Shown here one piece after another: positions 2,846-21,743 of a stretch of DNA of 32,000 bases. Numbering within the stretch: position 1 is the first letter of the stretch; each line of letters starts with the position of its first letter. The DNA comes from Raphidiopsis brookii D9 (GTDB lineage: Bacteria; Cyanobacteriota; Cyanobacteriia; Cyanobacteriales; Nostocaceae). The notes under the pieces are model-generated. The model did not search any database. It saw only the letters and a list, made by a program, of their open reading frames with translations, and was not told where the DNA came from. The DNA is taken from positions 60,001 through 92,000 of the forward strand of contig ACYB01000004.1 in assembly GCA_000175855.1 (NCBI GenBank), in the 5' to 3' direction. The position numbers and the translations under genes were made by a program.

Positions 2846-4723
2846 CTATTGGACACTCTTGGTCAAATTAGTTCTTAAAGAAGCAAAATGCTGACCACCA
2901 AGTTCAATTTTATCCGCGATACAACCATGTTTCAACCTATCAATTAGATATTCTGTGTCTCGAGCAATTAAATTAGTACCATGGTCTGGTTCTATTAAGC
3001 TGACTAGTTTGATGTGTTTTGTTGGTTGAACGGAGAAATTAGCAAGGCCCAGAAAATTAAACACACCTGACTCATAAGTACCACAGGGTACAGAAGGATT
3101 ATCAACACCAAAACAATATTCATCCTCTTGAAACCAATCAAAAGCGGGATAACCATGAAAGTGAACAATTGGGGCTCCATTTTCAATTAGTTCTGGTGCA
3201 TATAAAGCAGCAGACAAACTAATTGCCAGCATGACATAAATATCGTAGGAAGGTTTGATGTCAGATTTATGGGAATTATTTGCTGGTGGTAGTTGGAGAT
3301 GTAAATTATTGGTTAGTCCAATGCGCAGAACATCCTGTTCCAAACTCAGGTCTGTTTTATTGGAACCTGAGCGGGAACTAACTAACCAAATATCGGGAAT
3401 TTGCTTAAATATATAATCTGCACCAATCCGTGTTTTTAAAAACCGTCTACCTGATTGATTTTTTCGCACTTCATCACTATTCAATCCAGGAATTGCTAAT
3501 AAATCTTCCCATTGGGTGGCACTTATTTCCCTTTCTCCCACATAGGAAGGTGGTTCTATATAGGCTATAAAACCATAGGAAACGCCAGTTCTCCCATTGA
3601 CGATAACATTTACTATATCCCTATGGGATTTTCTTTTAATCACCTCGGTTAATTTGAAACCTGGTGGAAACAAACCTGTTGAGGTCAGTTCCTTACCTAA
3701 CTTTGCTAATTTGTGAGCATAGGGAGATAGATAGGGATTATAGACTCCCAGTTCAAATCTATTCATTAATAGGGGAGTAATGGGAACATAAATTTTAGGA
3801 ATTAGGGATTTTAATATGAAATCATCAATTTCTGTCCTAGGAAAAATAGAATCAGATAAATTCATATTTAGGATAGAGATTTGTTCTTTAGATACCCCTA
3901 TTACTATTTCAGAAAATGTTTGAATCAGGGTGTTAATTCCAATACTAATTTTCTCTTGATAGTGAGTTAATGGACTCACAAATTTATCATCGATGTCGCT
4001 AAGAATGATCACTTGAGTATTGGTGGGATCTTCAACATATTTAGCAGCGTGGTCTTCGGCCCAACTACTCAACTTAGCAATTTGCACAACAGACATGTTC
4101 TGTTTATTGATTAACCAATGATAAGATAAAGTGTAAATACTTTCCGCGACAAATATACCTAACTTTCTGAACCATGAATTGGGTCTTGCTACATCTATTA
4201 CCGCATTAATTTCTGATCTTACCCCCTTAATTGTAAAAGAATAATGCCAATTAATAATGGGAATATTAATTTTATAACAAAAGTCCCTAATAGAATCTTG
4301 CCAAGGAACCACAGCAACACCCAGAGTTTTTAATTTAATAGCTAAATCCTGACGGAATTTAGTAATTCTATGATTATCATACCCATTGGGTAAGGGTCTA
4401 AAGGTGACACTGAGGTTTTTAGCCATAATGTGCGGGTTAATAATGGGGGGTTGATATTCTATAGGTAGTTCACTTGTGAACCCCCCAATCAACTTACCAA
4501 TGGTTTGTAAACTAATACCGGAAATGGGATTTTCTGTGGTAGAGTTGCTAGAGATATCCATTTCTTGCAATAGGGCCAAAATATCTCCTTTATGGGTAGC
4601 AATTTCCGCTTGCATTTCCGGTGTAATTATTCCTTTGGGAGAGCGGATATTTAGTTGTTGATTCTCGATCCAAAATTCCACACCTTGCTTAGTTAAAAGT
4701 GCTAAGATTTCTGATGCGTTCAT
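2846..4723 (-). CDS. Orphan protein: TubC-type N-terminal docking domain plus ~560-aa unassigned domain (625 aa from the ATG at 4723)
   Basis: From the ATG at 4723-4721 (GGAG 9 nt upstream) the protein begins MNASEILALLTKQGVEFWIENQQLNIRSPKGIITPEMQAEIATHKGDILALLQE. This matches the TubC N-terminal docking-domain pattern (L..L...GV.LW.E...L....P.G..TPE....I..HK..I..LL). I recognise no catalytic motif in the rest. The listed 698-aa ORF start (4942) would overlap the upstream ACP gene, and that extension is low-complexity. Confidence 0.7.
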   Translation of the reverse strand: MNASEILALLTKQGVEFWIENQQLNIRSPKGIITPEMQAEIATHKGDILALLQEMDISSNSTTENPISGISLQTIGKLIGGFTSELPIEYQPPIINPHIMAKNLSVTFRPLPNGYDNHRITKFRQDLAIKLKTLGVAVVPWQDSIRDFCYKINIPIINWHYSFTIKGVRSEINAVIDVARPNSWFRKLGIFVAESIYTLSYHWLINKQNMSVVQIAKLSSWAEDHAAKYVEDPTNTQVIILSDIDDKFVSPLTHYQEKISIGINTLIQTFSEIVIGVSKEQISILNMNLSDSIFPRTEIDDFILKSLIPKIYVPITPLLMNRFELGVYNPYLSPYAHKLAKLGKELTSTGLFPPGFKLTEVIKRKSHRDIVNVIVNGRTGVSYGFIAYIEPPSYVGEREISATQWEDLLAIPGLNSDEVRKNQSGRRFLKTRIGADYIFKQIPDIWLVSSRSGSNKTDLSLEQDVLRIGLTNNLHLQLPPANNSHKSDIKPSYDIYVMLAISLSAALYAPELIENGAPIVHFHGYPAFDWFQEDEYCFGVDNPSVPCGTYESGVFNFLGLANFSVQPTKHIKLVSLIEPDHGTNLIARDTEYLIDRLKHGCIADKIELGGQHFASLRTNLTKSVQ

Positions 4724-4857
4724 GACTAAGTCTCCAATATGAAAAAAAGTGATTAATGATAAAAAGCTGCGAGAAAAAAAAGACACTTGGCTGAACGGAT
4801 TGTATAGTCCTCCATTCAGTCCCAGTGTCAGTCTTAGAGGAGGAAAACTGGAAAATC

Positions 4858-5145
4858 TTAAATTTGCAATATTTCTGAGGAGGAATTTTCTAATTCTTGA
4901 GCTAATCGTTGTGCTAATTGTTGAATGGTGGGATAGTACCACAAGTACATCAGGGACAATTTAAATCCCAAAATTTTTTCGGCTTTACTTGCTAAAATCA
5001 TAGCTTGTTGTGAATCTAAACCATAACTATCTAAAGGTTGTTGAATATCTATTTCTTCTGGATTTACTCCTAATATGAAAGCAATGTTGTTAACTAGCCA
5101 ATGTTCAATATCCCCAGCACTATTTAGCTTAGTTATTTGACTCAT
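4858..5145 (-). CDS. Discrete acyl/peptidyl carrier protein (PP-binding), 95 aa
   Basis: Type I PKS/NRPS-style carrier signature: IDIQQPLDSYGLDSQQAMILASKAEKILG...LWYYPTIQQLAQRLA. The phosphopantetheine Ser codon is at 5011-5013. GGAGG lies 8 nt upstream of the ATG. Confidence 0.85.
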   Translation of the reverse strand: MSQITKLNSAGDIEHWLVNNIAFILGVNPEEIDIQQPLDSYGLDSQQAMILASKAEKILGFKLSLMYLWYYPTIQQLAQRLAQELENSSSEILQI

Positions 5146-5184
5146 CTATTTACCTCCAGTTTCTTAATCATTAAAATCTTTAAT

Positions 5185-6558
5185 TCATGATACCTGAGAT
5201 GATAAATAGGAAATTTCTTCAATCATTTCCATAAATTCATTCACCAGTTTTTCCATAGTGGGTTGACTCAGGGAAGGTTGGGAAAAGACGAAATTTAATA
5301 ACATCTTGCCTTGAAAAGTGGCAACATGAAGGATAAACATACCTGCATATAGTGCGTGAGAACCCGCAAAACTGATTTCTTCAAGTTGTAATTCACCATA
5401 TATTTCAGGGATGTTAACCTTACCAATATTAGAAACGGAAACATTAGCAGCAATTTGATGAGGAAATAGAAAGCAAAAGTTAATCAGATGTTTAGCAAGA
5501 AATACCATTTTAAAAATATCCCCTCTATGGATACTTGCTGCTAAGGATTGTTTAATCCTCCTGGCCAGATCCCAAAAATAGGTGTTGGTTGTGATAGTGT
5601 GAAAACTCATCTGGGATGTGGCTAATAGACCAATATTCTCTTCATTGATGGGTGGTTGTAAACGTCTTCTTAAGTCAAAGTAGGATAGACAATTTAATCG
5701 AATAGACTTACACTGCTGGTTGAGAATTTTTTTAGCTACTGTCAATAACATGGCAGCAGATAAGGCACTTTGTACTGTGGCATTTTCTGCTCGACATTGG
5801 GCAAAAAATTTTTCAGCTGTCTCTGATAATATTTGTCTATGAATTATTTGGGAGTTCCTCTGAGAAATGGGAACATATTTTTCCACTTTTAAAGTTTGTG
5901 GAGGGTTAGTCAGTTTCTCCCAGGCGATCTTTAACAGTAATATCCATCTATTTAACTTTGCTCCTTTTAAATGACCCAATATTTTTTCTGGTGGTGGTAA
6001 TGGGGGTAAAAGACTAAGCGTATCCGAAAAATTACCAGAGGTAATTTGTGCATAATAGGTGAAGATTTCTGAATGTAGATTAACACTTGATAAACCATCA
6101 GCAATTGCATGATGTACGGTAGTCAATAGATGATTAACCTTTGGATTTTCTTGATTAATAATTAGTACCGCTCGCATCAGGTATCTACCACTATCAATTG
6201 GTTGATTCATTTCCTGATTAACAACTTCTTGCCATTCTTTCTCCTCCGAATTAATTACCGCCCGTAAAGGTATTTTTTCTGTAGTACCCGGTTGCAAATA
6301 AAACCGATTGCGAAAATTATGTTGATGGGTAATAATATGAGAGTTCAGAACTAAATGACGATACTGCAAAATATCTAGAGCTTCTCTCAAAACTGGTTTG
6401 TGGATGTAGCCTCGAATGCAACTAATAGTAACCAAATTCCAGGTTTTCGCACGTTGGTTGAGAAGTTCCATAGTAGTTTCTAAACTACTCAATTGTCTTG
6501 TATGGACAGGATTAAAAAAATATTTAGAGTTTTTCTGGAATATATTGAGTATACTCAT
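5185..6558 (-). CDS. Stand-alone condensation-domain-like acyltransferase (HHxxxDG superfamily), 457 aa
   Basis: Catalytic motif VHHAIADGLSS is encoded at 6094-6114. The size and N-terminal RQLSSLE segment fit free-standing C / PapA5 / WS-DGAT-type enzymes. The start at 6558 overlaps the upstream ER gene by 35 nt; an alternative ATG is at 6471. Confidence 0.75.
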   Translation of the reverse strand: MSILNIFQKNSKYFFNPVHTRQLSSLETTMELLNQRAKTWNLVTISCIRGYIHKPVLREALDILQYRHLVLNSHIITHQHNFRNRFYLQPGTTEKIPLRAVINSEEKEWQEVVNQEMNQPIDSGRYLMRAVLIINQENPKVNHLLTTVHHAIADGLSSVNLHSEIFTYYAQITSGNFSDTLSLLPPLPPPEKILGHLKGAKLNRWILLLKIAWEKLTNPPQTLKVEKYVPISQRNSQIIHRQILSETAEKFFAQCRAENATVQSALSAAMLLTVAKKILNQQCKSIRLNCLSYFDLRRRLQPPINEENIGLLATSQMSFHTITTNTYFWDLARRIKQSLAASIHRGDIFKMVFLAKHLINFCFLFPHQIAANVSVSNIGKVNIPEIYGELQLEEISFAGSHALYAGMFILHVATFQGKMLLNFVFSQPSLSQPTMEKLVNEFMEMIEEISYLSSQVS

Positions 6559-8188
6559 CGGGAATCTGTAATCCTTGAATTTTTAAGTTTTGGATGCGGT
6601 ATAGGAATGCTGCTCCCGTCATGATATGGTTAGCAACTTCAACAACTTGACGATTTTGAGGTTGAGCTAAATAAGAACCTTGCACCCAATCATTAAAGCT
6701 ACCCATAGCTGGTCCACACCAAATTTGATAGTCAATTTCTCTACCCTTTTCTCCAGTATTGGACCAACGAGAAGAGAGTCCTAAATACCAACGGAAAATT
6801 AATGCCATTTTCAATTTAGGATTGTTTGCTGCTTTGGTTAACTTTTCTGGATTTCTTTGAGATAAATAATTAATTGTCTCTTGCCAAACCTCCTGCCAAG
6901 ATTTTTTAAAAACTTGTTTTTCTAATTTATCTCTTTCTGAGTTGGGAACTTCCTCTATTGATTGATAGGTTTTATATAACTCATATAGTTTTTGAGCGCG
7001 GAGGGGAAAAAGAGTTCCTCGTTTGAGAACTTGTAATTTCACACCCATTTCAAACATATCAGCTGCTGGAGCCATCATCACATCAGCCATTTGAGCTTGG
7101 GCTAATAATTGCTTTGTGTGTGCAGAAGTTCCAGCTTCCATACAAGATTGATTTACGGAACCGGTAACAACATAAGCAGCACCCATAATAAAAGCAGCTA
7201 AGGCTGATTTGGGTGTGGAAATTCCCCCAGCTACACCAATTCTTACTGGATTTTTATAATTGTATTGATTTTGAATTTCATTTCTTAGTTCCAGAATAGA
7301 AGGTAATAAACAAATTAGGGGACGATTATCCGTATGTCCTCCGGAATCAGCTTCCACCGTGATATCATCGGCCATGGGAATTTGACTGGCAATATTAGCT
7401 TGTAGTTCACTAATTAAACCTTGTGCTACCAGTTGTTTAAGAATTTGAGTGGGAGCAGGATGTAAAAATTTTGCTGCTACCTCCTGACGGGAAATTTTAG
7501 CAATAACTTTATTTCCGATTTCAATTTCATTAGCTGAATTTAGACTCAATCCCGCAGCTCGATAATAAACTATGTTGTCAGTTAAATCTAAAAAGGCTGA
7601 TGCTTCAACTACTTTGACATGGTATTTTAGGTACAAATCTACGTTATGTCGTTCTATTGCTGGTTCACTAGGACTATGGAGTAAGTTAAAACCGTAAGGT
7701 TGTTGATTTAGGGAATGTTGAATTTTATCAATGGCTTTTTCCACACGAGAGGGAGATAAACCACCCGCACCAAAGACGCTTAAAATTCCCGCTCTCCCCA
7801 ATGCAATTACCATTTCTTCTGATGCTATTCCCTGGGCCATTGCTCCAGTCATATAAGCATATTTCACACCATAAGACTTGAGAAAATTTTCATCCCCCAG
7901 TTGTACAGTTGTTAAGGAAGGAACCGTCATTAACATTTCTAGCTGAGTACTACCCCCAGAGACACTTTCTTCATTGGTAATACCAATTTTATTTTCATGT
8001 CTGACTATATAACAAGGTTTTTCTAAGACTCCCAACTTTGATTTGATTTCTTTTGCATCGAATGCAACCGTATTAAAATCACCTTGCCATGAGCGATGGT
8101 TAATAAGATGATTAATAAATAAATTAGAAACTCGCAGATAATTATCTCGATTAATGTCTAGATTGATGATATTTTCTGTAACTAACAT
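6524..8188 (-). CDS. PfaD-type trans-acting enoyl reductase (nitronate monooxygenase-like FMN enzyme), 554 aa
   Basis: The length and stretches such as YAYMTGAMAQGIASEEMVIALGRAGILSVFGAGGL, EADSGGHTDNRP and MAPAADMFEMGVKLQVLKRGTLFP are typical of PfaD / PKS trans-ER proteins. Confidence 0.9.
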   Translation of the reverse strand: MLVTENIINLDINRDNYLRVSNLFINHLINHRSWQGDFNTVAFDAKEIKSKLGVLEKPCYIVRHENKIGITNEESVSGGSTQLEMLMTVPSLTTVQLGDENFLKSYGVKYAYMTGAMAQGIASEEMVIALGRAGILSVFGAGGLSPSRVEKAIDKIQHSLNQQPYGFNLLHSPSEPAIERHNVDLYLKYHVKVVEASAFLDLTDNIVYYRAAGLSLNSANEIEIGNKVIAKISRQEVAAKFLHPAPTQILKQLVAQGLISELQANIASQIPMADDITVEADSGGHTDNRPLICLLPSILELRNEIQNQYNYKNPVRIGVAGGISTPKSALAAFIMGAAYVVTGSVNQSCMEAGTSAHTKQLLAQAQMADVMMAPAADMFEMGVKLQVLKRGTLFPLRAQKLYELYKTYQSIEEVPNSERDKLEKQVFKKSWQEVWQETINYLSQRNPEKLTKAANNPKLKMALIFRWYLGLSSRWSNTGEKGREIDYQIWCGPAMGSFNDWVQGSYLAQPQNRQVVEVANHIMTGAAFLYRIQNLKIQGLQIPDEYTQYIPEKL

Positions 8189-8300
8189 TGTGGAAAACCT
8201 TTGTTGGAAGTGATTGGGGAAACCTATGAGCAGGAGGATATTGAACTAATACTTCCCACCCACTCCTCCCCCTTGTTTGATATAAATTTTGATATCAACC

Positions 8301-11108: not shown

Positions 11109-11174
11109 GACAATTCTCCATTTTTAAATTTGATAAGTATTACAAAGCCCAATTACCTTAACTGAATTTGCTTA

Positions 11175-14100
11175 TTAGTAACTATTGGGCAAGATTGTGG
11201 CTTTTGCTCCCTTCATCCGATTATAAACTTGTCCTTTTTGACTGTGAGTAATTACATCAGCAACTACATAAGATTCAGTTTTGGATTTGATTTCACAAGT
11301 TACATAAAACGTTTCTCCAAAGGGAACAGGTGCAAATTGTTCAAAATTTTCAATTTCTGATGGTAAACAACCAACTTGATGAAAATGTTGAGTCCAAATC
11401 CACAGAGAATGTACCTGTACATCCGCTATATAGGGGTTAAAAGTCTGTACTCTGAATTGTCCCTGTTGGTGTAATGTAGGTTCGGGGAGTTCACATTTCA
11501 TAGTCAGTTTACCGGGACTGATATTTAACACAGATTTTACCCCTTGAAAAGTATTACCATGAAATAAACTACCCACACCAGTTTGATATAGTAAGGAATT
11601 GCTGGCTAGGAATTGCCCATCTTGGGTGAGGTTAAAAAGTTCATAGTTATCAGCTGGAGGAACTTGTCTTTTCAAAATTAGGTTACTACTAAAATGATAT
11701 CTGATTTTTCCATGGTTGGTAACACTACTAATTTTGCCCACAAGGTGAATTTCTTGATTGTCAATTTTAGCAATTTCTTGAATTTCAAGAATATATTCAT
11801 GGGGGGAATTTTGGTCAAAAACAATTCCTTTAAGGACTTTAAAGTTAGGACAGTGAAATATCTGGAAACCAGGATAGAGTTGTTCACAACTGCTAGATAT
11901 CCACGACAGTCCACAAGTTGCGGGAAGAACTGGATTACCCGCAATCACATGATCCTGTAAAAATGGGTTATAGTTTAACTTTAATTGACGGGTGATTTGA
12001 TGGGTTTTTAGTTCACTAGACAAGGTAGAAGGAATATAGACTAAGGGACTACCAATTACTACTTGGGTCATGCTTGAATCACTAGTTCTTAGTTGATCAA
12101 CTAAGATACTACTACCCAGTTCTTGGGGAATGGTTTCAATTCCTCGTTGTGCAAATGCTGTCTGTAATTCCGGAGAAACCATACCACTATCCCAAGGACC
12201 CCAATTAATGGAGACTACATGACAATTAGGGTATTTATGTTTAATTACATGGGCTGATTTGTTGAGAATTTCGTTAGCTATTGCATAGTCCGTCTGTCCA
12301 ACGTTACCATAAAATCCCACTACTGAAGAAAATAGGATTAAATATTCCAGTTGATTTGTTTCCACAATATTGAGTAGGTTTTCTAAACCCTGAACTTTGG
12401 CAGCATAAACTGTTTCAAAATCTTGAACTGTCTTTTTCTCAATTCTTTTATCTGCTAAGTTACCCGCACCATGAATGATTCCAGTTATAGTGCCAAATTG
12501 GTCAATTATAGGTCTTAGCTTTTCTTTCAACATCATACCATCGGTGATATCAACACAGATATATTCTGCTTTTCCTCCTGCTTCATTAATTGCTTTTAAT
12601 GTATTGTGTATTTCTCTTTGGGAGGCAATAGTTTGATATTTTTTCTGCACCATTATGGGAGTGGGTTTTTCTCCCTTGGACAGAAAATCTTCCATGATTC
12701 GCCGTTTCAGTTCATTTTCATCTTCATATCCTTCAGACCAAACAGGTTCAATTTCTGCACTAGAACGTCCTAAAAGAATAAACTTGCATTGGTATTCTTC
12801 AGCCAATTTGATTACACATTTAGCAGTAATTCCCTTAGCACCCCCACTAACTAAAAAAACCTGGTCTTTAGTAATATTTAATGAATCGGGAATGATGGAT
12901 GATTTAGTAGGTTCTGCTACTAAGGTAAATCTATCTGTTTTATTATATCCCACCTCCGTAACTAATAAATTAGGATCTTGCAATTCAGCCAGAATATGTT
13001 TTACGGTTGTGTCCCCATCTAAATCAGGACTTAAATCTAGGGTACGACAAAATACTTCTGGCCATTCTTGATTTAAACTTTTAGTTAGTCCAAATAATCC
13101 TCCACTAATGGGACTAAAATTGTGAGTTTTTGCCGTTCCTAATTCACCATCTAATCTCACAACTGCAAAAAAGCAAGCACGTTCTTTTTTAGTCAGTTGA
13201 TTTAGATCTTCCTTCAGATGTTTGGCAATTAAAAACACGTGCTGAACAATGGCTTGATCTATTCCCAAGTTATTGTTGGAGTAAGGATGTAGATGAATAA
13301 AACCACCTACACAACCAAACTTGCTGGTAAGTTCGGTCAAATGTTCTTGCAAAGTTTCTTCATGCCAATCGTTTAATCTGATTTGAGCAATCTCCTCCGA
13401 TAGGTTTGACTCCAAGTATGGAAAGGTTAAAACAACAGTTTTACATCCTTTATCTGCAAGCTTAGCTACTAACCTATGGGTAACTTCCGAACCATCATTA
13501 GTAATTAAGACAAAATGATTTTCTGGAATGGTTAAATCTAAACTGTCTGGTTGAGGAAGTGCTTTTAATTGCACCGGAAGGCGCAGGATTTTATCCGCTA
13601 CTTCCGTGGTTGACGTGTCTGGTTTTTCTGATGTGGATAAATTGGACCTCTCCACAGTTTCAGCTTGATTGCGCATATAGTCAGCAATTTGTTCCAGAGT
13701 TGCCAATTGCGCTAATTCTTCTGGGTTAGGTCTGGGTAGATCCGGGTAAAGTTCTAAAAGTCCTCCCAGAATTTCTACTCTTTTGATAGAGTCAATTCCT
13801 AAATCTGCTTCCATATCCATGGAAGGGTCTAACATTTCCACAGGATAACCTGTTTTATCACTAACAATAGTGAGCAAGATCTGACTTAAATTATCGGGAA
13901 TGGTAATTGTTGTAGATCTATTTGATAAGTCTTCATGTAAGTCGTCATGGGGTAAAACCAAGAATTGTGGATGATTATGGTGTTCACTAAGAGTCTCCTC
14001 TAGGGGTTGATTTTGACCCAGCTGTGTAATTAAGTTGTTTATATACTCAGCAATTTGTTCCAGAGTTGCCAATTGCGCTAATTCTTCTGGGTTAGGTCTG

Positions 14101-17100
14101 GGTAGATCCGGGTAAAGTTCTAAAAGTCCTCCCAGAATTTCCACTCTTTTGATAGAGTCAATTCCTAAATCTGCTTCTATATCCATGGACAAGTCTAACA
14201 TTTCCACAGGATAACCCGTTTTATCACTGACAATATTGATCAGGGTCTCCCTCAGTTTTCCTTTATCAATATGAGTAGCTATGGGAAAATCGACTGTAAT
14301 GTCAGGTAGATTATTCTGGGAATTATTTTCCGGTTCTAGAGGATAAATTAACTTTTGTGCTGGTGGGTCACTTTGTGCAACATGGGAAGATGGAAGATGA
14401 GAATACCCATTGGGAGACCCTACCTCTAACAAGCTATAGTGCTGCTCGAGTAATTGAAAGTAATTATTGGTATACTCCTGTTGATAATTGAGATATTTTT
14501 CGTGAATACGAATGGTTTCAGCTTGATGGTCGTGTAGTTGCATCATGCTACGTTCCGTACTAGAAATTGCCAACTGTTGTGTTTGAGCTTGATATTCATT
14601 AGTTTCTTCCTTCCCTAGGAACAAACACTGTTGCTGCATTAATTCATAAAAGGTTTTATTGTACTCTATTTGATTTTGCAAAGACTGTTGATGTGCATGA
14701 TTAATTTCACTTTGCTGTCGAGTAAATTCTGCTAATGATTGTTCCAAACTATCAAGAATTCGATCATAGTTTTCCACGGGAATTTCTATCTTTTGTTCTA
14801 CCATACTATAGTTTTTAACTTCAGAATTAGTTTTTGAATTGAGGATACTTGATGAGGTTATTTCTGGATTTATCTCCACTAATGTTTTCTCTGGCTGAGT
14901 TTGATAATTTTCTTCACTAACCCTTGTTATTGGGATAACTGAACCAGTTGCTAAAGCCTGAGCAAATGCTTTTTGTGATCTGTCATTAATATTGGTAGCA
15001 TTCAATCTGATATTCAAAGTTTTTTGTTCATTTTTCTGTGAAGCTGAAGAAATTTTAGTAGGAATTTGATAGGGATCTAGGTTTTTTAATGGTACACCAA
15101 AAACTCGCAATTTGGTAACAGCTTCCCGTAATAATAAATCACTATCTTGACGATAATTAGCATTTAATGCTACCGCAATATGAGGCTTGTCTACCAAGAT
15201 TTCTTTGACTAAATTAGTAAGAATATTTTTGGGACCAAACTCAATAAAACAATTACCACCAGCTTGATATATATTCTCAATCTGTTGTTGAAATAACACC
15301 TGATTTAATAAATGTTCCTGGAGAATTTTTTGCATGGATCCAGGTTTATTAGGATATAATTTTCCTGTCACATTGCTATAAACCGGAATGCGAGGTGGTT
15401 GAAAATTCACTTGTGCGATCGCATGGGCGAAGGGTTTTTGTGCATGGGAGACTAACGGTGTGTGGAAAGCAGCGGAAACCCCTAATAAGAAACAGGAGAA
15501 CCCCTGAGCTTGTAAAACATTCTGTAATTGAGTAATTTCTGATTTGTTCCCAGCTAGAACTATTTGCTGTGGGGAATTATAGTTAGCAATAGCAACTTGG
15601 GGAAAGTCTTTAATGAATTCGGTTACTTGGCTGATATTACCTTTTACTGCTAACATTCCTCCAGCATCCACTTCTGGGGATGTGGACATTGCTTTTCCCC
15701 TAGCTTTGACCAGAAAGAAATAATCTTCTTCAGTTAATACACCTGCAGACCATAGAGCTGTTAATTCTCCAAAACTATGTCCAGCAACAAAATCAACTTT
15801 CAACCCAGCTTGCTGCAATATTTTATATAATCCTGCACTCAATACTCCTATTGCTGGTTGTGCATATTCAGTTTTTTGCAGTTTTTCTAATTGTTCTTGT
15901 CGTTCCTGTGGACTGAAAACTGGAGTGGGGAAGACTACTTGAGAAAGAGATTCTAATCCCTCACGGGAGAATAAATCATCTAGATGAGAGTAGGTTTGTC
16001 GTAAGCAGGGAAAGTTAATTACTAATTCTCTTCCCATTTCCAAGTATTGGGAACCTTGTCCGGAAAATAAGGCCACTACTTTTCCGGTTGTTTCCATACC
16101 CTGTTGACGATAATAAATTCCTTTGGGATGTTCCCAAAAATCAACAGAAGGTTGATTTTTTAGCAAATCAATAATGATAGCTAAATGGGCTATTGCTTGG
16201 CTTAAAGAAAGGGTGGTGAATCCTACTCTAGCATGATCAACAGGAATTATCAATTGTTCAGATTCGGCAATTATTCTTTGATAATGTTGTTCTTTATCTG
16301 TTGATTCTAACTGTTGATAAAGATGTTGACATTGAGATAATAACTCTGGCGTTGTGGGTGCGCTCAAGAAAATTGACTTAGCGCAATTATGCAATCTATA
16401 TGATTGATGATGTTCTGATTCATATTCTTCCAAAACTACATGATAATTTGTACCTCCAAAACCAAAGGCGCTCACCCCAGCTCGTCTCGGTTGATTGCTA
16501 ATCCATGGTCTGGTTTCCGTGTTTAAATAAAAGGGAGAATTTTCAATATTCAGTTTGGGATGGGGTTGGGTAATGTTAATAGTTGGTGGTAATACCTTAT
16601 GATGTAATGCCAAGGCGGTTTTAATTAAACTAGCAGCACCCGCAGCAGCTTTTGTGTGTCCAATTTGAGATTTAACCGTTCCTAAAGCTATGTGTTGTTT
16701 TAGAGAGTTATTATCGCCAAATACCTGATTTATTGAAATAAATTCCGTAGGGTCTCCCACCATAGTTCCCGTACCATGAGCTTCAATTAAACCCACAGTT
16801 TGAGGTGCAAAACCAGCATTTTCATAAGCCCGACGAATGGCTTTTACCTGTCCTTGGGAATGGGGAGCGTAAATGCTTTTGTATTTACCATCACTGGAAC
16901 TGCCAATACCCTTGATGACAGCATAAATGCGATCGCCATCTTTAACAGCATCTTCCAGACGTTTGAGTACCAACATTCCCACGCCCTCACCTAACATCAT
17001 ACCATCGGAATTGACATCGAAGGGTCTAACGTTTTCACTGGGGGAAACTGCGGGAGTTTTACTAAAACACATATAGGCAAAAATGGAATTATCGGTATCA

Positions 17101-17945
17101 ACCCCACCTGTAATCATCATATCAGCACGATGGGCAAGCAATTCGCTGATTGCCATATTCAGTGCGCCCAGGGAACTAGCGCAAGCAGCATCAACTACAC
17201 AATTAGTTCCGCCCAAATCAAGTCGGTTGGCAATTCTCCCGGAAATTACATTAGCCAACATTCCAGGGAACGCATTTTCCTCCCATTGTATATAAGCACT
17301 TTTGAGTTTCTCAATTACTTTTTCAGTCTCATCATCAGAAAGTCCACAGTTTTTAAAAACTTTTTTCCAAATGGGATATTGTAATCGTGACCCCAAAGGT
17401 ACTGCCAATTGTCTACCAATTGCCACACCTAATATTACCCCTGTACGATCCCGATCAAACTGTTGGGACTCACTATAACCAGCATCTTCCATAGCTGCTT
17501 TAGCGACAACTAAACCTAATAATTGAGAAATATCCGTCACTTCTAGAATATTTGGTGGTAAACCAAACTCCATAGGATTAAAATCAATATCGGGGATGAA
17601 ACCACCTCTTTTACAGTAAGTTTTATCGGGTGCTTTAGGATTGGGATCATAATAGTCTTCCACGCTCCAGCGGGAAGCAGGCACATCTGTAATGCAATCT
17701 ATTTTATCCATTATGACCTGCCAATACTCCTGCAAGTTTCTTGACTCGGGAAATAGGGAAGCCATACCAATAATTGCAATTTGATTACTTTGATTACCAC
17801 CATTATAATTTTGAGAATATTCCATGGTTTTTTTCCCTTTAATCAAGTTTAATACATCTCGTTCACAATTGCTAACTTCATCCTGCAATTGTGCTAAATC
17901 TGACTCAAATTTGGCGTGATTCATGGCGATATTGTGCTTTTTCAA
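11175..17945 (-). CDS. PfaA/HglE-like type I synthase: KS-AT-(Gln-rich linker)-ACP-ACP-KR-DH, up to 2256 aa
   Basis: KS: DAACASS (Cys codon 17181-17183), EAHGTGT, KSQIGHTKAAAG. AT: GHSFGE (Ser codon 15774-15776), AAFHTPL. Two ACPs: LGIDSIKRVE (Ser codons 14154-14156 and 13788-13790). KR: VSGGAKGIT plus a GQTDYAIAN Tyr motif. PS-DH: HVIAGNPVLP (His codon 11949-11951), LFHGNTFQ, ADVQVH. The start is uncertain: TTG at 17945, ATG at 17924, or ATG at 17825, which has an AAGGGA-like SD and gives a typical 15-aa lead into IAIIGMA. Confidence 0.95.
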   Translation of the reverse strand: MKKHNIAMNHAKFESDLAQLQDEVSNCERDVLNLIKGKKTMEYSQNYNGGNQSNQIAIIGMASLFPESRNLQEYWQVIMDKIDCITDVPASRWSVEDYYDPNPKAPDKTYCKRGGFIPDIDFNPMEFGLPPNILEVTDISQLLGLVVAKAAMEDAGYSESQQFDRDRTGVILGVAIGRQLAVPLGSRLQYPIWKKVFKNCGLSDDETEKVIEKLKSAYIQWEENAFPGMLANVISGRIANRLDLGGTNCVVDAACASSLGALNMAISELLAHRADMMITGGVDTDNSIFAYMCFSKTPAVSPSENVRPFDVNSDGMMLGEGVGMLVLKRLEDAVKDGDRIYAVIKGIGSSSDGKYKSIYAPHSQGQVKAIRRAYENAGFAPQTVGLIEAHGTGTMVGDPTEFISINQVFGDNNSLKQHIALGTVKSQIGHTKAAAGAASLIKTALALHHKVLPPTINITQPHPKLNIENSPFYLNTETRPWISNQPRRAGVSAFGFGGTNYHVVLEEYESEHHQSYRLHNCAKSIFLSAPTTPELLSQCQHLYQQLESTDKEQHYQRIIAESEQLIIPVDHARVGFTTLSLSQAIAHLAIIIDLLKNQPSVDFWEHPKGIYYRQQGMETTGKVVALFSGQGSQYLEMGRELVINFPCLRQTYSHLDDLFSREGLESLSQVVFPTPVFSPQERQEQLEKLQKTEYAQPAIGVLSAGLYKILQQAGLKVDFVAGHSFGELTALWSAGVLTEEDYFFLVKARGKAMSTSPEVDAGGMLAVKGNISQVTEFIKDFPQVAIANYNSPQQIVLAGNKSEITQLQNVLQAQGFSCFLLGVSAAFHTPLVSHAQKPFAHAIAQVNFQPPRIPVYSNVTGKLYPNKPGSMQKILQEHLLNQVLFQQQIENIYQAGGNCFIEFGPKNILTNLVKEILVDKPHIAVALNANYRQDSDLLLREAVTKLRVFGVPLKNLDPYQIPTKISSASQKNEQKTLNIRLNATNINDRSQKAFAQALATGSVIPITRVSEENYQTQPEKTLVEINPEITSSSILNSKTNSEVKNYSMVEQKIEIPVENYDRILDSLEQSLAEFTRQQSEINHAHQQSLQNQIEYNKTFYELMQQQCLFLGKEETNEYQAQTQQLAISSTERSMMQLHDHQAETIRIHEKYLNYQQEYTNNYFQLLEQHYSLLEVGSPNGYSHLPSSHVAQSDPPAQKLIYPLEPENNSQNNLPDITVDFPIATHIDKGKLRETLINIVSDKTGYPVEMLDLSMDIEADLGIDSIKRVEILGGLLELYPDLPRPNPEELAQLATLEQIAEYINNLITQLGQNQPLEETLSEHHNHPQFLVLPHDDLHEDLSNRSTTITIPDNLSQILLTIVSDKTGYPVEMLDPSMDMEADLGIDSIKRVEILGGLLELYPDLPRPNPEELAQLATLEQIADYMRNQAETVERSNLSTSEKPDTSTTEVADKILRLPVQLKALPQPDSLDLTIPENHFVLITNDGSEVTHRLVAKLADKGCKTVVLTFPYLESNLSEEIAQIRLNDWHEETLQEHLTELTSKFGCVGGFIHLHPYSNNNLGIDQAIVQHVFLIAKHLKEDLNQLTKKERACFFAVVRLDGELGTAKTHNFSPISGGLFGLTKSLNQEWPEVFCRTLDLSPDLDGDTTVKHILAELQDPNLLVTEVGYNKTDRFTLVAEPTKSSIIPDSLNITKDQVFLVSGGAKGITAKCVIKLAEEYQCKFILLGRSSAEIEPVWSEGYEDENELKRRIMEDFLSKGEKPTPIMVQKKYQTIASQREIHNTLKAINEAGGKAEYICVDITDGMMLKEKLRPIIDQFGTITGIIHGAGNLADKRIEKKTVQDFETVYAAKVQGLENLLNIVETNQLEYLILFSSVVGFYGNVGQTDYAIANEILNKSAHVIKHKYPNCHVVSINWGPWDSGMVSPELQTAFAQRGIETIPQELGSSILVDQLRTSDSSMTQVVIGSPLVYIPSTLSSELKTHQITRQLKLNYNPFLQDHVIAGNPVLPATCGLSWISSSCEQLYPGFQIFHCPNFKVLKGIVFDQNSPHEYILEIQEIAKIDNQEIHLVGKISSVTNHGKIRYHFSSNLILKRQVPPADNYELFNLTQDGQFLASNSLLYQTGVGSLFHGNTFQGVKSVLNISPGKLTMKCELPEPTLHQQGQFRVQTFNPYIADVQVHSLWIWTQHFHQVGCLPSEIENFEQFAPVPFGETFYVTCEIKSKTESYVVADVITHSQKGQVYNRMKGAKATILPNSY
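13681..13869 (-). repeat. ACP-coding tandem repeat, copy 2 (366-bp period)
   Basis: A ~189-bp block aligns base for base with 14047-14235. I count 8 mismatches (~96% identity), and the first ~95 nt are identical. Confidence 0.9.
14047..14235 (-). repeat. ACP-coding tandem repeat, copy 1 (366-bp period)
   Basis: Partner of 13681-13869. It encodes SDKTGYPVEMLD.SMD.EADLGIDSIKRVEILGGLLELYPDLPRPNPEELAQLATLEQIA.Y. Confidence 0.9.
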
Positions 17946-18693: not shown

Positions 18694-19017
18694 ATGAGAC
18701 TATCTGAACTAGATCCACTCATACCGCTAAATGAGTTGAGAGAAGAACTGCTGAAATTACCAAAAGGCTACTCTTTTTACGAAGATGAGTTGGTAGGATT
18801 TCTATCAAAACGTAGATGGCCTGATACGGAACGTCGAATTGATAGAACGACATTTTGGCGGTGGCGTAATGACAATGGAATTGAACATCAAAAAGTATTC
18901 AGTCGCTTGGATGTTCTCAAATTGTGTCAAATTTGTGATCACTATCGTGTTGATGGAACTCGCAATGAATACCTGGCACTTATGAAAAAGAAAAAGGAAC
19001 TAATGCTCAACAAATAA
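18694..19017 (+). CDS. Hypothetical 107-aa protein, possible HTH DNA-binding protein
   Basis: ATG-initiated ORF with plausible composition. The segment IDRTTFWRWRNDNGI resembles the S(R/K)STLYRW..(D/E)G recognition-helix pattern of AlpA/excisionase/MerR-like HTH proteins. No family assignment is possible by eye. Confidence 0.5.
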   Translation: MRLSELDPLIPLNELREELLKLPKGYSFYEDELVGFLSKRRWPDTERRIDRTTFWRWRNDNGIEHQKVFSRLDVLKLCQICDHYRVDGTRNEYLALMKKKKELMLNK

Positions 19018-19090: not shown

Positions 19091-19256
19091 CTAGAAACTC
19101 CATCTTGCTTGTTAAATAAAATTCAGCATATCACGCCATATCAATTGTAGTTATCAAAAGAATGCTATCTACCGCCGTATTATAAGTAGCTTGTCTCAAA
19201 CCACAAGGTTAAAACTTGATTTAAGGGATAGTAAACGGATAACTAAAGGCATAATT

Positions 19257-20456
19257 ATGGTAGACAAAGAAAAGCATTTACTTGTCAATTTTAGAAGTTG
19301 GTTGTTAATTAGTTTAGCGACTACCACATTTATATCTACCCTACTCATATCTTTTCAAAGTATTTCAAATTTCCAGACTAAATCCCAATCCAAGGTGGCA
19401 ATTCCCATTAATACTCCCAGTCCAATAATTACTGGTGTTGCTGCTTTAGGAAGACTAGAACCCCAAGGAGAAATAATTCGCTTATCTGCTTCTAACTCTT
19501 TGGGAGGAGGTATAAGAATAGCAAAACTTCTGGTCAAAAAAGGCGATAAAATTCGTCAAGGTCAATTAATTGCCTTTTTGGACAATTATAGTCTTAATCT
19601 TGCAGCTTTAGAAAAGGCCAAAAGACAAGTAGAAGTAGCAAAAGCCAATCTAGAAAAAGTAGAAGCTGGAGCAAAACAGGGAGATATTTATGCCCAAAAA
19701 GCCACCATTGGGCGATTGGAAGCAGAATTGCGTGGTGAAACATCAGCACAAAAAGCCATAATTGCTAGATTGCAAGCTGAATTAAATAATGCACAAAGAG
19801 AAAATCAGAGATATGAAGATTTATATGAAAATGGAGCAGTTTCCGCTTCAAATGCAGAGAGTAAACGCCTAAGAAGAGACACTCTACAGCAACAAATAAA
19901 TGAAGCAAAAGCAGCACTAAATAGAACTCAACAAACTTTGCAAAAACAATTAAATGAAGCTCAATCAAGACTCAACAGCATTGTGGAAATTCGTCCTACT
20001 GATCTACAAGTAGCAAAAGCAGATCTGGCAAGTGCAAAAGCTTCAATTACCCAGGTTCAAGCGGAATTAGATTTAAGTATAATTCGTTCACCCATTGATG
20101 GACAAGTTTTAAAAATTAATGCTTGGCCAGGAGAAATAATTAGTAGTCAAGGTATTGCTGAATTAGGAAGAACTCAGCAAATGTATGTGGTAGCAGAAGT
20201 TTATGAGACTGATGTTAAAAAAGTAAAATTAGGACAATCTGTAGACATTACTGCTGATGCTTTTCCAGGGAAAATTCAAGGAACAGTTACAGATATTGGA
20301 TTGCAAGTTAATCAGCAAAATATCTTCAATAATCATCCGGGTGCTGATACAGACAACAAAATAGTTGATGTCAAAATTCGGATCAACAATCCCAAAGATA
20401 ACCAAAGGGTTGCAGATTTAACTAACCTACAGGTTCAGGTATGGATCAACATGTAA
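19257..20456 (+). CDS. DevB-family membrane fusion protein (HlyD-like) of a tripartite ABC exporter
   Basis: N-terminal TM segment, then ITGVAALGRLEPQGEIIRLSA, which is typical of DevB-family MFPs. A long coiled-coil (LEKAKRQVEVAKANLEKVEAG...) and a C-terminal beta-barrel region follow. ATG at 19257 (AAAGG upstream) is preferred over the TTG at 19191 used in the ORF track. Confidence 0.9.
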   Translation: MVDKEKHLLVNFRSWLLISLATTTFISTLLISFQSISNFQTKSQSKVAIPINTPSPIITGVAALGRLEPQGEIIRLSASNSLGGGIRIAKLLVKKGDKIRQGQLIAFLDNYSLNLAALEKAKRQVEVAKANLEKVEAGAKQGDIYAQKATIGRLEAELRGETSAQKAIIARLQAELNNAQRENQRYEDLYENGAVSASNAESKRLRRDTLQQQINEAKAALNRTQQTLQKQLNEAQSRLNSIVEIRPTDLQVAKADLASAKASITQVQAELDLSIIRSPIDGQVLKINAWPGEIISSQGIAELGRTQQMYVVAEVYETDVKKVKLGQSVDITADAFPGKIQGTVTDIGLQVNQQNIFNNHPGADTDNKIVDVKIRINNPKDNQRVADLTNLQVQVWINM

Positions 20457-20511
20457 TAGTTAAAAGTTAGGAGTCAATTCACATAACAACTTAAATTAAG
20501 AGGTCTTCAAA

Positions 20512-21684: not shown

Positions 21685-21743
21685 AAACATTAACATCTCC
21701 TATTCTCACAGTTGTCTAAAGTTGTTTCCTAAGTCGGAGGAAT

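What the first reader, a model, noticed from the sequence alone, without database searches (positions are those of the whole stretch)
2846..17945. Pfa/HglE-type lipid megasynthase operon with a non-canonical release/tailoring end
Six co-directional genes have short gaps (39-134 nt, plus one 35-nt overlap) and their own SD sequences. They encode KS-AT-ACP-ACP-KR-DH, a Cys-less KS/AT protein, a PfaD-type ER, a stand-alone HHxxxDG condensation-type enzyme, a discrete ACP and a docking-domain protein of unknown function. The front three proteins resemble PUFA-synthase / heterocyst-glycolipid (HglE) machinery. Several canonical parts are missing from the window: a PfaC-like KS-CLF-FabA-DH protein, an HglB-type ACP-thioester reductase, a glycosyltransferase and a thioesterase. 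Chain release therefore probably goes through the C-type enzyme to an ACP-bound or free nucleophile, giving an ester- or amide-linked lipid rather than a free PUFA or a fatty-alcohol glycoside. I do not know the product of such an arrangement.
Basis: partly seen in the sequence, partly recalled or inferred. Interest (0 to 1): 0.8.

Follow-up and report, generated by a model that had tools for sequence, protein, structure and literature searches.

The report
Orphan cyanobacterial lipid synthase, new end-enzyme

Summary
Six co-directional minus-strand genes encode KS-AT-ACP-ACP-KR-DH (PfaA family), a Cys-less KS/AT (PfaB family), a PfaD enoyl reductase, a PapA5-like HHxxxDG acyltransferase, a discrete ACP and a TubC_N docking-domain protein. 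The window is from Raphidiopsis brookii D9. A 2025 PNAS paper already names this locus the "hgl-like island": hgdCB plus hglE-F-G-C-A homologues in five ORFs, product unknown. The three tail genes are not mentioned in that paper's text or in the supplementary files held here. In 80 related genome loci the ACP-docking-protein pair is essentially invariant. The ACP carries a conserved C-terminal docking tail. The PapA5-like gene is missing from 16 of 67 loci. The docking protein ("X") has no Pfam, NCBIfam or PDB sequence match. Its high-confidence AlphaFold model, together with five ordered motifs ending in HxH...HG, points to a class II aldolase-like metal domain. X also occurs in a FAAL-PKS glycolipid-type cluster, and, without the docking domain, in Patescibacteria next to PlsC/Aas-like acyltransferases. 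I infer that chain hand-off runs ACP to X and that PapA5-like esterification is a Nostocales accessory. X's chemistry and the product remain unknown.

The parts
11175..17945 (-). PfaA/HglE-F-G-type megasynthase: KS (aa 54-458), AT (626-937), ACP x2 (~1233-1302 and ~1355-1424), KR (1697-1919), PS-DH (1979-2254). The true start may be ATG 17924 or 17825 rather than TTG 17945.
   Evidence: Pfam and NCBIfam hits (TIGR02813 2169.7 bits). Active-site residues C255, H390, H430, S724, two LGIDS serines and H1999 are intact.
8301..11108 (-). PfaB/HglC-type non-condensing KS-like domain plus acyltransferase.
   Evidence: TIGR02816 scores 161.6 bits, above its cut-off. Alignment to the PfaA KS shows Cys to Glu and second His to Asp. 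The AT motif GYSLG is present.
6524..8188 (-). PfaD/HglA-type enoyl reductase.
   Evidence: TIGR02814 E 1e-202; Pfam PfaD_N, NMO and FabD_helical_ins.
5185..6558 (-). PapA5-like stand-alone condensation-fold O-acyltransferase (HHAIADG at aa 149-155). It overlaps pfaD by 35 nt and is an accessory gene of the Nostocales versions.
   Evidence: Pfam PapA_C and Condensation. NF006787 PapA5 subfamily E 2e-21, below its cut-off. PDB 8s6l PapA5 E 2e-24 over the full length. Absent from 16 of 67 related loci.
4858..5145 (-). Discrete ACP (serine in GLDSQQ) with a conserved C-terminal tail ...SSEILQI that is the likely docking motif for X.
   Evidence: PP-binding E 1e-13. An ACP lies directly upstream of X in essentially all 79 loci with upstream sequence. 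The last six residues are conserved as [S/D]-E-[I/T/F]-[F/L/I]-[Q/E]-[I/L].
4544..4723 (-). N-terminal beta-hairpin docking (TubC_N) domain of protein X (aa 1-60).
   Evidence: PF18563 E 8e-15. The AF2 model matches solved docking domains: AerJ 8aqq (TMt 0.85, rmsd 0.8 A), TubC 2jug and Kj12 6ews.
3584..4531 (-). Protein X, middle alpha/beta domain (aa ~65-380) of unknown fold class.
   Evidence: AF2 pLDDT is 84-91. No Foldseek PDB match reached E 0.001; the most probable match was CoaB at probability 0.63. The only conserved polar residues are N288 and K310.
2846..3583 (-). Protein X, C-terminal class II aldolase/adducin-like domain (aa ~381-625). Conserved residues: G380/S382, S452-G453-x-x-K456, P491-S492-x-D494, H521-x-H523, C547, E578, H581-G582.
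   Evidence: Foldseek to RhuA 1gt7 (E 7e-4, probability 1.0), AraD 1jdi and HMPDdc 2z7b. Motif order matches E. coli AraD, FucA, RhaD and YgbL. hhalign is weak (E 0.03-0.17) but pairs SRSG/PSYD with AraD KPSG/PSSD. Pfam Aldolase_II E 0.2 in one member.
18694..19017 (+). Small ORF (107 aa) of unknown function in the 1.2-kb divergent intergenic region. An 11/12 sigma-70-like promoter match lies at 18645-18672.
   Evidence: ORF list. No Pfam or NCBIfam hit. Promoter scan; the number of promoter-like sites in the region is not above chance.
19191..22436 (+). DevB (19191-20456), DevC (20512-21684) and DevA (21744-22436): a tripartite ABC exporter of the heterocyst-glycolipid exporter family, and part of the island.
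   Evidence: TIGR02971 at 349 bits, TIGR01185 at 457 bits and TIGR02982 at 367 bits, all above their cut-offs. hgdCB homologues are part of the published hgl-like island definition. devBCA lies co-directionally after X in L059, L065, L072 and L054.

Best explanation
The locus is the 'hgl-like island' of R. brookii D9. It is an iterative PUFA-synthase-type secondary-lipid synthase (PfaA-like, PfaB-like and PfaD-like proteins) paired with a DevBCA-type envelope exporter.

Shown:
- One active KS, two ATs, KR, DH and ER are present with intact motifs. There is no FabA-type isomerising dehydratase, thioester reductase, glycosyltransferase or thioesterase.
- The discrete ACP and protein X form an invariant pair.

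Inferred:
1. The synthase builds a long, largely saturated (possibly hydroxy- or keto-bearing) acyl chain.
2. The chain, or its last intermediate, ends up on the discrete ACP.
3. The ACP's conserved C-terminal tail docks onto the beta-hairpin docking domain of X.
4. X is a metal-dependent class II aldolase-like enzyme that occupies the position held by the ACP-thioester reductase HglB in the canonical island. It processes and off-loads the ACP-bound chain.
5. My preferred chemistry for X is transfer of the acyl chain to a small phosphorylated acceptor (DHAP, glycerol-3-phosphate or a similar compound), feeding a glycerolipid-like product.
6. The Nostocales-specific PapA5-like enzyme then adds or receives an ester-linked chain.
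7. DevBCA exports the lipid to the cell envelope.
For: - Identity of the megasynthase and exporter.
- Source strain.
- Published naming of the island in this strain, its retention after loss of heterocysts, and its unknown product.
- ACP-X invariance, and PfaA-PfaB-PfaD upstream in 60 of 67 loci.
- Conserved ACP C-terminal tail. This matches the known SLiM/beta-hairpin docking logic, in which the last five residues of a carrier protein bind the docking domain of TE, TR, C, MT or halogenase partners (PMC9113145).
- X model at pLDDT 91.4 and pTM 0.87.
- Class II aldolase fold and ordered motifs.
- An X-thioesterase fusion in a PfaD-desaturase-ACP-X context.
- X in a FAAL-ACP-KS-AT-ACP-X-SDR-GT28-Glf cluster. 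The GT best matches diacylglycerol glucosyltransferases.
- An SDR 57-63% identical to that SDR recurs downstream of X in 17 Pfa-type loci.
- Docking-less X homologues in Patescibacteria sit next to PlsC/Aas-like acyltransferases in 6 of 7 contigs.
Against: - No experiment or product is known.
- The class II aldolase assignment rests on one Foldseek hit (TM about 0.47) plus motifs. Profile-profile statistics are weak (E 0.03-0.17), and the Pfam Aldolase_II threshold is not reached.
- O-acyl transfer is not a known activity of that fold.
- The X-TE fusion fits a tailoring or decarboxylase role better than an acyltransferase role.
- Beta-hairpin docking domains also recruit on-line tailoring enzymes such as halogenases, so X need not be the release step.
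- How the chain reaches the discrete ACP is not shown.
- The SDR partner is absent from this window.
- Patescibacterial homologues are only 22-26% identical and may do something different.
Confidence: 0.55

Rival explanations
1. X is a beta-keto-acyl processing enzyme. It acts on a 3-oxoacyl-ACP, or on the freed beta-keto acid, chelates the 1,3-dicarbonyl on its metal and catalyses hydrolysis and decarboxylation to a methyl ketone. An SDR then reduces the ketone to a secondary alcohol that can be glycosylated or esterified, for example by the PapA5-like enzyme.
For: - The class II aldolase superfamily contains beta-keto-acid decarboxylases: HMPDdc 2z7b appears among the Foldseek hits, and E. 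coli YgbL/OtnC aligns with the family.
- In the FAAL-type cluster X follows a KS-AT + ACP module that has no KR, so the ACP should carry a 3-oxoacyl chain. X is immediately followed there by an SDR and a glycosyltransferase.
- The X-thioesterase fusion fits hydrolysis followed by decarboxylation.
- A conserved SDR is linked to X in 19 loci.
Against: - The conserved SG and PSxD motifs, which bind substrate phosphate in class II aldolases, are kept. A plain fatty beta-keto acid has no phosphate.
- It does not explain the neighbourhood with PlsC/Aas-like acyltransferases in Patescibacteria.
- Most clusters with X, including this one, have no thioesterase.
- The GT is of the diacylglycerol-directed type.
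Confidence: 0.2
2. The PapA5-like condensation-fold enzyme is the chain-release catalyst. It transfers the finished chain from the synthase to a nucleophile held on the discrete ACP or free in solution, giving an ester- or amide-linked lipid. X is only an accessory or scaffolding protein.
For: - The HHxxxDG motif is intact and the protein resembles mycobacterial PapA5 over its full length. PapA5 releases ACP-bound mycocerosates by esterifying a diol (established knowledge).
- The gene is translationally coupled to pfaD by a 35-nt overlap.
- It is present in 51 of 67 related loci.
Against: - It is absent from 16 of 67 loci. These include the complete minimal islands PfaA-PfaB-PfaD-ACP-X-DevBCA in Xenococcaceae, Myxosarcina and Acaryochloris.
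- Its position varies: before the ACP, after the ACP or after X.
- X is far more conserved (49-75% identity) and keeps about 25 near-invariant residues typical of an enzyme.
Confidence: 0.15
3. ACP and X form a loading module rather than an off-loading one. X uses a ketose or triose phosphate, through metal-enediolate chemistry and possibly Cys547, to place a small polar unit on the discrete ACP. That unit is then joined to the fatty chain, by analogy with FkbH/glyceryl-ACP or AfsA-type chemistry.
For: - The class II aldolase-like site has retained phosphate-pocket motifs and a conserved Cys.
- A dedicated ACP is always adjacent.
- A C-type enzyme that could join two carrier-bound partners is present in Nostocales.
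Against: - The gene order is ACP then X, and the docking polarity (carrier C-terminal tail to enzyme N-terminal domain) is the polarity used for downstream partners.
- In the FAAL-type clusters the ACP before X is the only carrier for the KS-AT module, so it must carry the growing chain.
- Patescibacterial homologues have no adjacent ACP.
Confidence: 0.1

Closest known systems
'hgl-like island' of heterocytous cyanobacteria (PNAS 2025, PMC11804610)
   Same: It is the same locus type and the same strain. The paper defines homologues of hgdC, hgdB and hglE(A), F, G, C and A in five ORFs, states that this is the only island left in R. brookii D9, and leaves the product unknown.
   Different: The published definition is built only from homologues of Anabaena hgl genes. 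The paper's text and the supplementary files held here never mention the PapA5-like gene, the discrete ACP or the TubC_N protein. The present work adds these, and identifies ACP-X as the invariant terminal module.
[quoted passage not shown]
   Same: It has a homologous KS-AT-ACP2 / KR-DH synthase, which is fused into one protein here. It also has an HglC-like KS/AT, the HglA enoyl reductase and a DevBCA/HgdBC-type exporter.
   Different: The locus lacks HglD (second KS), HglB (ACP-thioester reductase), HglT (glucosyltransferase), HetN and HetI. A split ACP plus docking-fused X sits where HglB would act. The host makes no heterocysts.
Bacterial PUFA synthase (pfaABCD) and other secondary lipid synthases (Shulse & Allen 2011, PMC3098273)
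   Same: PfaA, PfaB and PfaD family membership is above the NCBIfam cut-offs, and the architecture is an iterative type I FAS/PKS.
   Different: There is no PfaC (KS-CLF plus FabA-type DH/isomerase), so cis-polyene formation is not expected. Release is not by a PfaB/TE or AGPAT domain.
Mycobacterial PapA5 (phthiocerol dimycocerosyl transferase)
   Same: The stand-alone condensation-fold enzyme has the HHxxxDG motif and full-length similarity to PapA5 (PDB 8s6l, E 2e-24). Like PapA5, it sits next to an iterative lipid synthase.
   Different: The score is far below the PapA5 equivalog cut-offs (76 bits against 396). The substrate alcohol is unknown, and the gene is dispensable in many versions of the island.
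SLiM/beta-hairpin docking pairs of NRPS-PKS systems (TubC, Kj12, Bamb_5915, AerJ)
   Same: X has an N-terminal alpha-beta-beta-alpha-alpha docking domain, and the upstream carrier protein ends in a short conserved tail.
   Different: The catalytic domain attached to the docking domain is not one of the listed partner types (C, E, Cy, TE, MT, TR, halogenase). It is a new family.
Class II aldolase/adducin superfamily (FucA, RhaD, AraD, OtnC, HMPDdc)
   Same: The predicted fold of X residues ~381-625 resembles this superfamily. The ordered motifs G-x-S, S-G, P-S-x-D, H-x-H and H-G correspond to its phosphate pocket, catalytic acid and three-His metal site.
   Different: No significant sequence-profile match was found. 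X has an extra ~320-aa alpha/beta domain and a docking domain, and its substrate is presented on an ACP. No member of the superfamily is known to act on acyl-carrier thioesters (my knowledge).

Membership tests
hgl-like island (PNAS 2025) | Clustered homologues of hgdC, hgdB and hglE(A)/F/G/C/A encoded by five ORFs, without hglD, hglB or hglT | tested here: met
   DevB, DevC, the PfaA-like fusion (KS-AT-ACP2-KR-DH), PfaB-like and PfaD-like proteins are present. No TR, GT or second KS is in the window. The paper names R. brookii D9 as carrying only this island.
Canonical hgl island | HglB-type ACP-thioester reductase for chain release | tested here: not met
   No NAD-binding thioester-reductase domain occurs in any ORF of the window.
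Canonical hgl island | HglT glycosyltransferase and HglD stand-alone KS | tested here: not met
   Neither is present in the 32 kb. Stucken et al. 2010 report that the hgl cluster is absent from D9.
PUFA synthase (pfaABCD) | PfaA, PfaB and PfaD family proteins | tested here: met
   TIGR02813 at 2169.7 bits (cut-off 1010), TIGR02816 at 161.6 bits (cut-off 144.3) and TIGR02814 at 673.8 bits (cut-off 449).
PUFA synthase (pfaABCD) | PfaC with KS-CLF and tandem FabA-type dehydratase/isomerase domains | tested here: not met
   No such ORF is in the window, and the only DH is the PS-DH of the PfaA-like protein.
PapA5 / condensation-fold O-acyltransferases | HHxxxDG catalytic motif and the two-lobed condensation fold | tested here: met
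   HHAIADG lies at aa 149-155. Condensation and PapA_C Pfam hits are present. There is a full-length match to PapA5 structure 8s6l, E 2e-24.
PapA5 / condensation-fold O-acyltransferases | Equivalog-level identity with phthiocerol dimycocerosyl transferase | tested here: not met
   The best NCBIfam scores are 76.4 bits (cut-off 396) and 40.8 bits (cut-off 716).
SLiM/beta-hairpin docking pair | An N-terminal beta-hairpin docking domain on the downstream enzyme | tested here: met
   PF18563 E 8e-15. The structural match to AerJ has TMt 0.85, and TubC and Kj12 docking domains also match.
SLiM/beta-hairpin docking pair | A short conserved C-terminal tail on the upstream carrier protein | tested here: met
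   The tail ...S-E-[I/T/F]-[F/L/I]-[Q/E]-[I/L] is conserved in the ACPs upstream of X across about 79 loci and two cluster types.
SLiM/beta-hairpin docking pair | Physical binding of the tail to the docking domain | not testable with these tools
   This needs ITC or NMR with the ACP tail peptide and X residues 1-60.
Class II aldolase/adducin superfamily (PF00596) | The characteristic alpha/beta fold | tested here: inconclusive
Class II aldolase/adducin superfamily (PF00596) | A three-histidine metal site (HxH...H) plus a catalytic Glu/Asp in a PS[ST][DE] motif | tested here: met
   H521, H523, H581 and P491-S492-x-D494 are at least 90% conserved across 43 family members. They occur in the same order and secondary-structure context as in AraD and FucA.
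Class II aldolase/adducin superfamily (PF00596) | A significant sequence-profile match | tested here: not met
   Pfam Aldolase_II reaches E 0.2 in 1 of 43 members. hhalign gives E 0.03-0.17. No PDB sequence hit was found.

The most novel reading that the evidence does not exclude
Protein X founds a new class of carrier-protein-docking, metal-dependent chain off-loading enzymes built on a class II aldolase scaffold. It would transfer an acyl chain from ACP to a phosphorylated C3 acceptor, making an acyl-DHAP- or lysophosphatidate-type product. This would explain how the orphan hgl-like island releases its lipid. The docking-less relatives could supply a so-far unassigned acylation or fatty-acid entry step beside PlsC/Aas-like acyltransferases in Patescibacteria. 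By my knowledge, those bacteria lack standard fatty-acid and lipid-initiation genes.
Probability: 0.2. Interest if true: 0.85.

Novelty: new variant of a known kind. Interest (0 to 1): 0.6.

Why it matters
The hgl-like island is widespread in heterocyst-forming cyanobacteria. It is retained in lineages that have lost heterocysts (Raphidiopsis) and is present in Trichormus azollae (a reduced-genome symbiont, by my knowledge), yet its product and role are an acknowledged open question.

Showing that its invariant end is an ACP docked to a new enzyme family gives a concrete handle. X and the ACP become targets for knockout, pull-down and in-vitro reconstitution, and lipidomics can look beyond glycosylated diols.

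The same enzyme family appears in a second, glycolipid-type cyanobacterial cluster. It also appears in a conserved acyltransferase-X-7TM-kinase trio in Patescibacteria. Its chemistry may therefore bear on how these ultra-small bacteria build membranes, and it would add a new off-loading logic to PKS/FAS enzymology.

Tried and rejected
- Canonical hgl island just outside the window: rejected on published evidence that D9 lacks it. A direct look at the contig beyond the window failed because the exact protein was not on record.
- NtcA-type regulation: no GTA-N8-TAC site lies in the divergent intergenic region, and the window-wide count equals chance.
- Promoter and terminator scans gave nothing above chance.
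- Rfam and tRNA scans of the window were empty.
- Sequence searches for X against Pfam, NCBIfam and PDB found only the docking domain.
- Fold of the middle domain of X: a separate AF2 model (pLDDT 84) gave no match at E 0.001 or better. The most probable match was CoaB at probability 0.63, alongside ribokinase-like hits, so I drew no conclusion.
- An alignment of all 43 X homologues was too diverse for the genome scan. A 12-sequence alignment worked.
- Low-stringency hhalign extension mis-paired the HxH strand with AraD's third-His strand at no confidence. I relied on motif order and secondary-structure context instead.
- Literature searches for the tail genes or for a characterised product found nothing beyond the PNAS 2025 description. 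The JACS Au 2026 survey covers different cyanobacterial Pfa-like hybrids. MIBiG and antiSMASH could not be queried.
Full report
**What is in the sequence.** The window carries six co-directional minus-strand ORFs at 11175-17945, 8301-11108, 6524-8188, 5185-6558, 4858-5145 and 2846-4942. Pfam and NCBIfam scans identify them as follows:
- a PfaA-family megasynthase with KS, AT, two PP-binding domains, KR and PS-DH (TIGR02813, 2169.7 bits);
- a PfaB-family protein with a KS-like domain and an AT (TIGR02816, above its cut-off);
- a PfaD-family enoyl reductase (E 1e-202);
- a PapA5-like condensation-fold enzyme;
- a 95-aa ACP;
- a protein whose only recognisable part is a TubC_N docking domain.

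Catalytic residues of the PfaA-like protein are intact: C255, H390, H430, AT S724, two LGIDS carrier serines and the DH motif HxxxGxxxxP. In the PfaB-like KS the catalytic Cys is replaced by Glu and the second His by Asp, while the AT motif GYSLG is kept. The PapA5-like enzyme has an intact HHAIADG motif. It matches the solved PapA5 structure 8s6l over its full length at E 2e-24.

The sixth gene really starts at ATG 4723, which is preceded by GGAG.

A DevB/DevC/DevA tripartite ABC exporter is encoded divergently from the megasynthase, across a 1.2-kb spacer. It spans 19191-22436, and all three proteins score above the curated cut-offs of the heterocyst-exporter families. Nothing else in the 32 kb is a KS, thioester reductase, glycosyltransferase or thioesterase.

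**Where it comes from and what is already known.** The sixth protein is 100% identical to a Raphidiopsis brookii D9 protein.
- Stucken et al. 2010 reported that D9 has lost both the nif and the heterocyst-glycolipid clusters.
- The 2025 PNAS study of hgl evolution describes a smaller, highly conserved "hgl-like island". It contains homologues of hgdCB and hglE(A)FGCA in five ORFs.
- That study states that this is the only island left in R. brookii D9. It argues against a role in heterocysts or akinetes and says the island's role "remains unclear".
- The five ORFs correspond to DevB, DevC, the fused HglE-F-G (PfaA-like), HglC (PfaB-like) and HglA (PfaD-like) proteins.

So the cluster type is not new and is not the canonical hgl island. 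The paper's text and the supplementary files held here never mention a TubC-type protein, and their mentions of carrier proteins concern the known hgl genes only. This follows from an island definition that used only Anabaena hgl homologues. I found no paper that characterises a product.

**Which tail genes are core.** A genome scan seeded on the sixth protein returned 80 loci. They come from Nostocales and also from non-heterocystous cyanobacteria: Xenococcaceae, Myxosarcina, Acaryochloris, Aliterella, Leptolyngbyaceae and others. tblastn mapping of the window proteins onto these loci shows the following.
- An ACP gene lies directly upstream of the docking protein ("X") in essentially every locus with upstream sequence.
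- A PfaD orthologue, preceded by PfaB and PfaA, is upstream in 60 of 67 loci with at least 6 kb of flank.
- The PapA5-like gene is present in only 51 of 67, and its position varies: before the ACP, after it, or after X.
- Complete minimal islands of the form PfaA-PfaB-PfaD-ACP-X-DevBCA, with no PapA5-like gene, occur in Xenococcaceae, Myxosarcina and Acaryochloris.
- Nostoc versions insert an unknown 432-aa protein and a 2Fe-2S ferredoxin between PfaD and the ACP.

**ACP-X docking.** The AlphaFold model of X is of high confidence (pLDDT 91.4, pTM 0.87). Its first ~60 residues superpose on solved beta-hairpin docking domains: AerJ 8aqq (TMt 0.85, rmsd 0.8 A), TubC 2jug and Kj12 6ews. In known systems these domains bind the last few residues of a short C-terminal tail on the upstream carrier protein. 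They are found on C, E, Cy, TE, MT, thioester-reductase and halogenase partners (review PMC9113145). The ACPs upstream of X all end in a conserved tail, [S/D]-E-[I/T/F]-[F/L/I]-[Q/E]-[I/L]-COOH, which is SSEILQI here. This holds even in loci with a different synthase. I infer that the ACP presents its cargo to X. Binding itself is untested.

**What X is.**
- *Sequence.* Beyond the docking domain, X has no Pfam, NCBIfam or PDB sequence match. An exhaustive HMMER search of 1.84 billion cluster representatives found only 227 relatives, so the family is small.
- *Conserved residues.* Across 43 diverse members about 25 positions are at least 90% conserved. They include R378, G380, S382, S452-G453-x-x-K456, D464, P491-S492-x-D494, H521-x-H523, C547, E578 and H581-G582.
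- *Fold.* Foldseek against the PDB gives E. coli rhamnulose-1-phosphate aldolase as the best match (E 7e-4, probability 1.0, TMt 0.47). L-ribulose-5-phosphate 4-epimerase and the decarboxylase HMPDdc follow. All three have the class II aldolase fold.
- *Motifs.* I aligned E. coli AraD, FucA, RhaD and YgbL. Their signature motifs are GNxS, (P/T)SG, PSS(D/E), HxH and HG. The first three form the phosphate pocket and catalytic acid, and the histidines form the His3 metal site (my knowledge of the family). These motifs recur in X in the same order. They also sit in the same secondary-structure context: PSxD, then a helix, then a strand ending in HxH; and later a strand, HG, a strand and a helix.
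- *Statistics.* hhalign is weak (E 0.03-0.17). It nevertheless aligns exactly SRSG...PSYD of X with KPSG...PSSD of AraD. One family member touches Pfam Aldolase_II at E 0.2.
- *Conclusion.* I regard a class II aldolase-like metal domain (residues ~381-625) as likely but not proven. The middle domain (~65-380) is a confident alpha/beta model with no significant structural neighbour.

**Contexts of X elsewhere.**
1. One relative is a TubC_N-X-thioesterase fusion. It sits in a PKS-PfaD-desaturase-ACP-X-TE operon.
2. In Aliterella atlantica and an unnamed marine cyanobacterium, ACP-X follows a different line: FAAL, (desaturase), ACP, a diiron-like protein, then KS-AT. It is followed by an SDR, a GT28 glycosyltransferase, a second SDR, a GMC oxidoreductase and UDP-galactopyranose mutase. 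The GT best matches diglucosyl-diacylglycerol synthases, although below their cut-off.
3. The SDR next to X in that cluster is 57-63% identical to an SDR encoded a few kb downstream of X in 17 Pfa-type loci. None lies in this window.
4. Docking-less homologues (~540 aa, 22-26% identical) belong to Patescibacteria. In seven contigs with different outer neighbours, X is always followed by a HisKA_7TM kinase. In six of the seven it is preceded by a PlsC/Aas-like acyltransferase.

Every context is lipid-related, and two point to glycerolipid-type chemistry.

**How it most likely works.**
- *Shown:* an iterative synthase with one active KS, a non-condensing KS-like partner, two ATs, KR, DH and ER; no FabA-type isomerase; a dedicated exporter; and an invariant ACP-X pair with matching docking elements.
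- *Inferred about the chain:* it is long and mostly saturated, perhaps hydroxy- or keto-bearing as in heterocyst-glycolipid aglycones. It is passed to the discrete ACP, possibly through the PfaB-like AT.
- *Inferred about X:* X takes the functional place of HglB's thioester reductase and off-loads the chain.
- *Preferred chemistry (about 0.3 on its own):* transfer to a phosphorylated C3 acceptor held at the metal site, of the acyl-DHAP/LPA type. The linked SDR would reduce the acyl-DHAP keto group. This reading unites the retained phosphate-pocket motifs, the diacylglycerol-type GT and the PlsC/Aas neighbours.
- *Main rival (about 0.2):* hydrolysis and decarboxylation of a 3-oxoacyl intermediate to a methyl ketone, followed by SDR reduction. 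This fits the KR-less KS-AT module, the TE fusion and the decarboxylases in the superfamily. It does not fit the Patescibacteria context or the phosphate motifs.
- *PapA5-like enzyme and exporter:* in Nostocales the PapA5-like enzyme probably adds an ester linkage by analogy with PapA5, and DevBCA exports the product.

**Verdict.** The finding is real. The new and interesting element is the conserved ACP-docked enzyme family X. I rate it a new variant of a known kind, with interest 0.6.

Noticed in passing
window 23736-24086 and 24124-24465 (minus strand): A radC-type gene appears split into two adjacent ORFs. One carries UPF0758_N plus HhH (113 aa). The other carries the RadC JAB domain (116 aa). 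This may be a frameshifted pseudogene or a naturally split gene.
   Followed up: no
window 18694-19017 (+), promoter-like site 18645-18672: A 107-aa ORF with no family match lies between the megasynthase and devB. It is preceded by an 11/12 match to the sigma-70 consensus (TTGACA-16-TAAAAT). It could be a small regulator of the island, but its conservation was not examined because the fetched loci do not reach this region.
   Followed up: partly
L070 2305-17492 (Aliterella atlantica CENA595) and L079 2754-17930: This is a second conserved cluster type containing ACP-X: FAAL, (desaturase), ACP, diiron-like protein, KS-AT, ACP, X, SDR, GT28 (diacylglycerol glucosyltransferase-like), SDR, GMC oxidoreductase and UDP-galactopyranose mutase. 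It looks like an uncharacterised glycolipid pathway.
   Followed up: partly
L086, L089-L093 (Patescibacteria contigs), X gene at about 5001-6650 in L090-L093: A three-gene module is conserved amid otherwise unrelated housekeeping neighbours in candidate-phyla-radiation bacteria: PlsC/Aas-like acyltransferase, then the X homologue, then a HisKA_7TM histidine kinase. In L088 the acyltransferase is replaced by three stand-alone 7TM proteins.
   Followed up: partly
L043 6234-8000 and 20 other Nostoc-type loci: Nostoc versions of the island carry an unknown 432-aa protein and a 2Fe-2S ferredoxin between pfaD and the ACP gene. They also carry an ABC half-transporter, an unknown 460-aa protein, an SDR and a methyltransferase downstream of X. 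The Raphidiopsis island is a stripped-down form.
   Followed up: partly
window 952-2220 (+): A 422-aa protein contains three 6-pyruvoyl-tetrahydropterin-synthase (PTPS) repeats in one polypeptide (E 1.5e-97, three stretches). This is unusual for a family that is normally single-domain.
   Followed up: no
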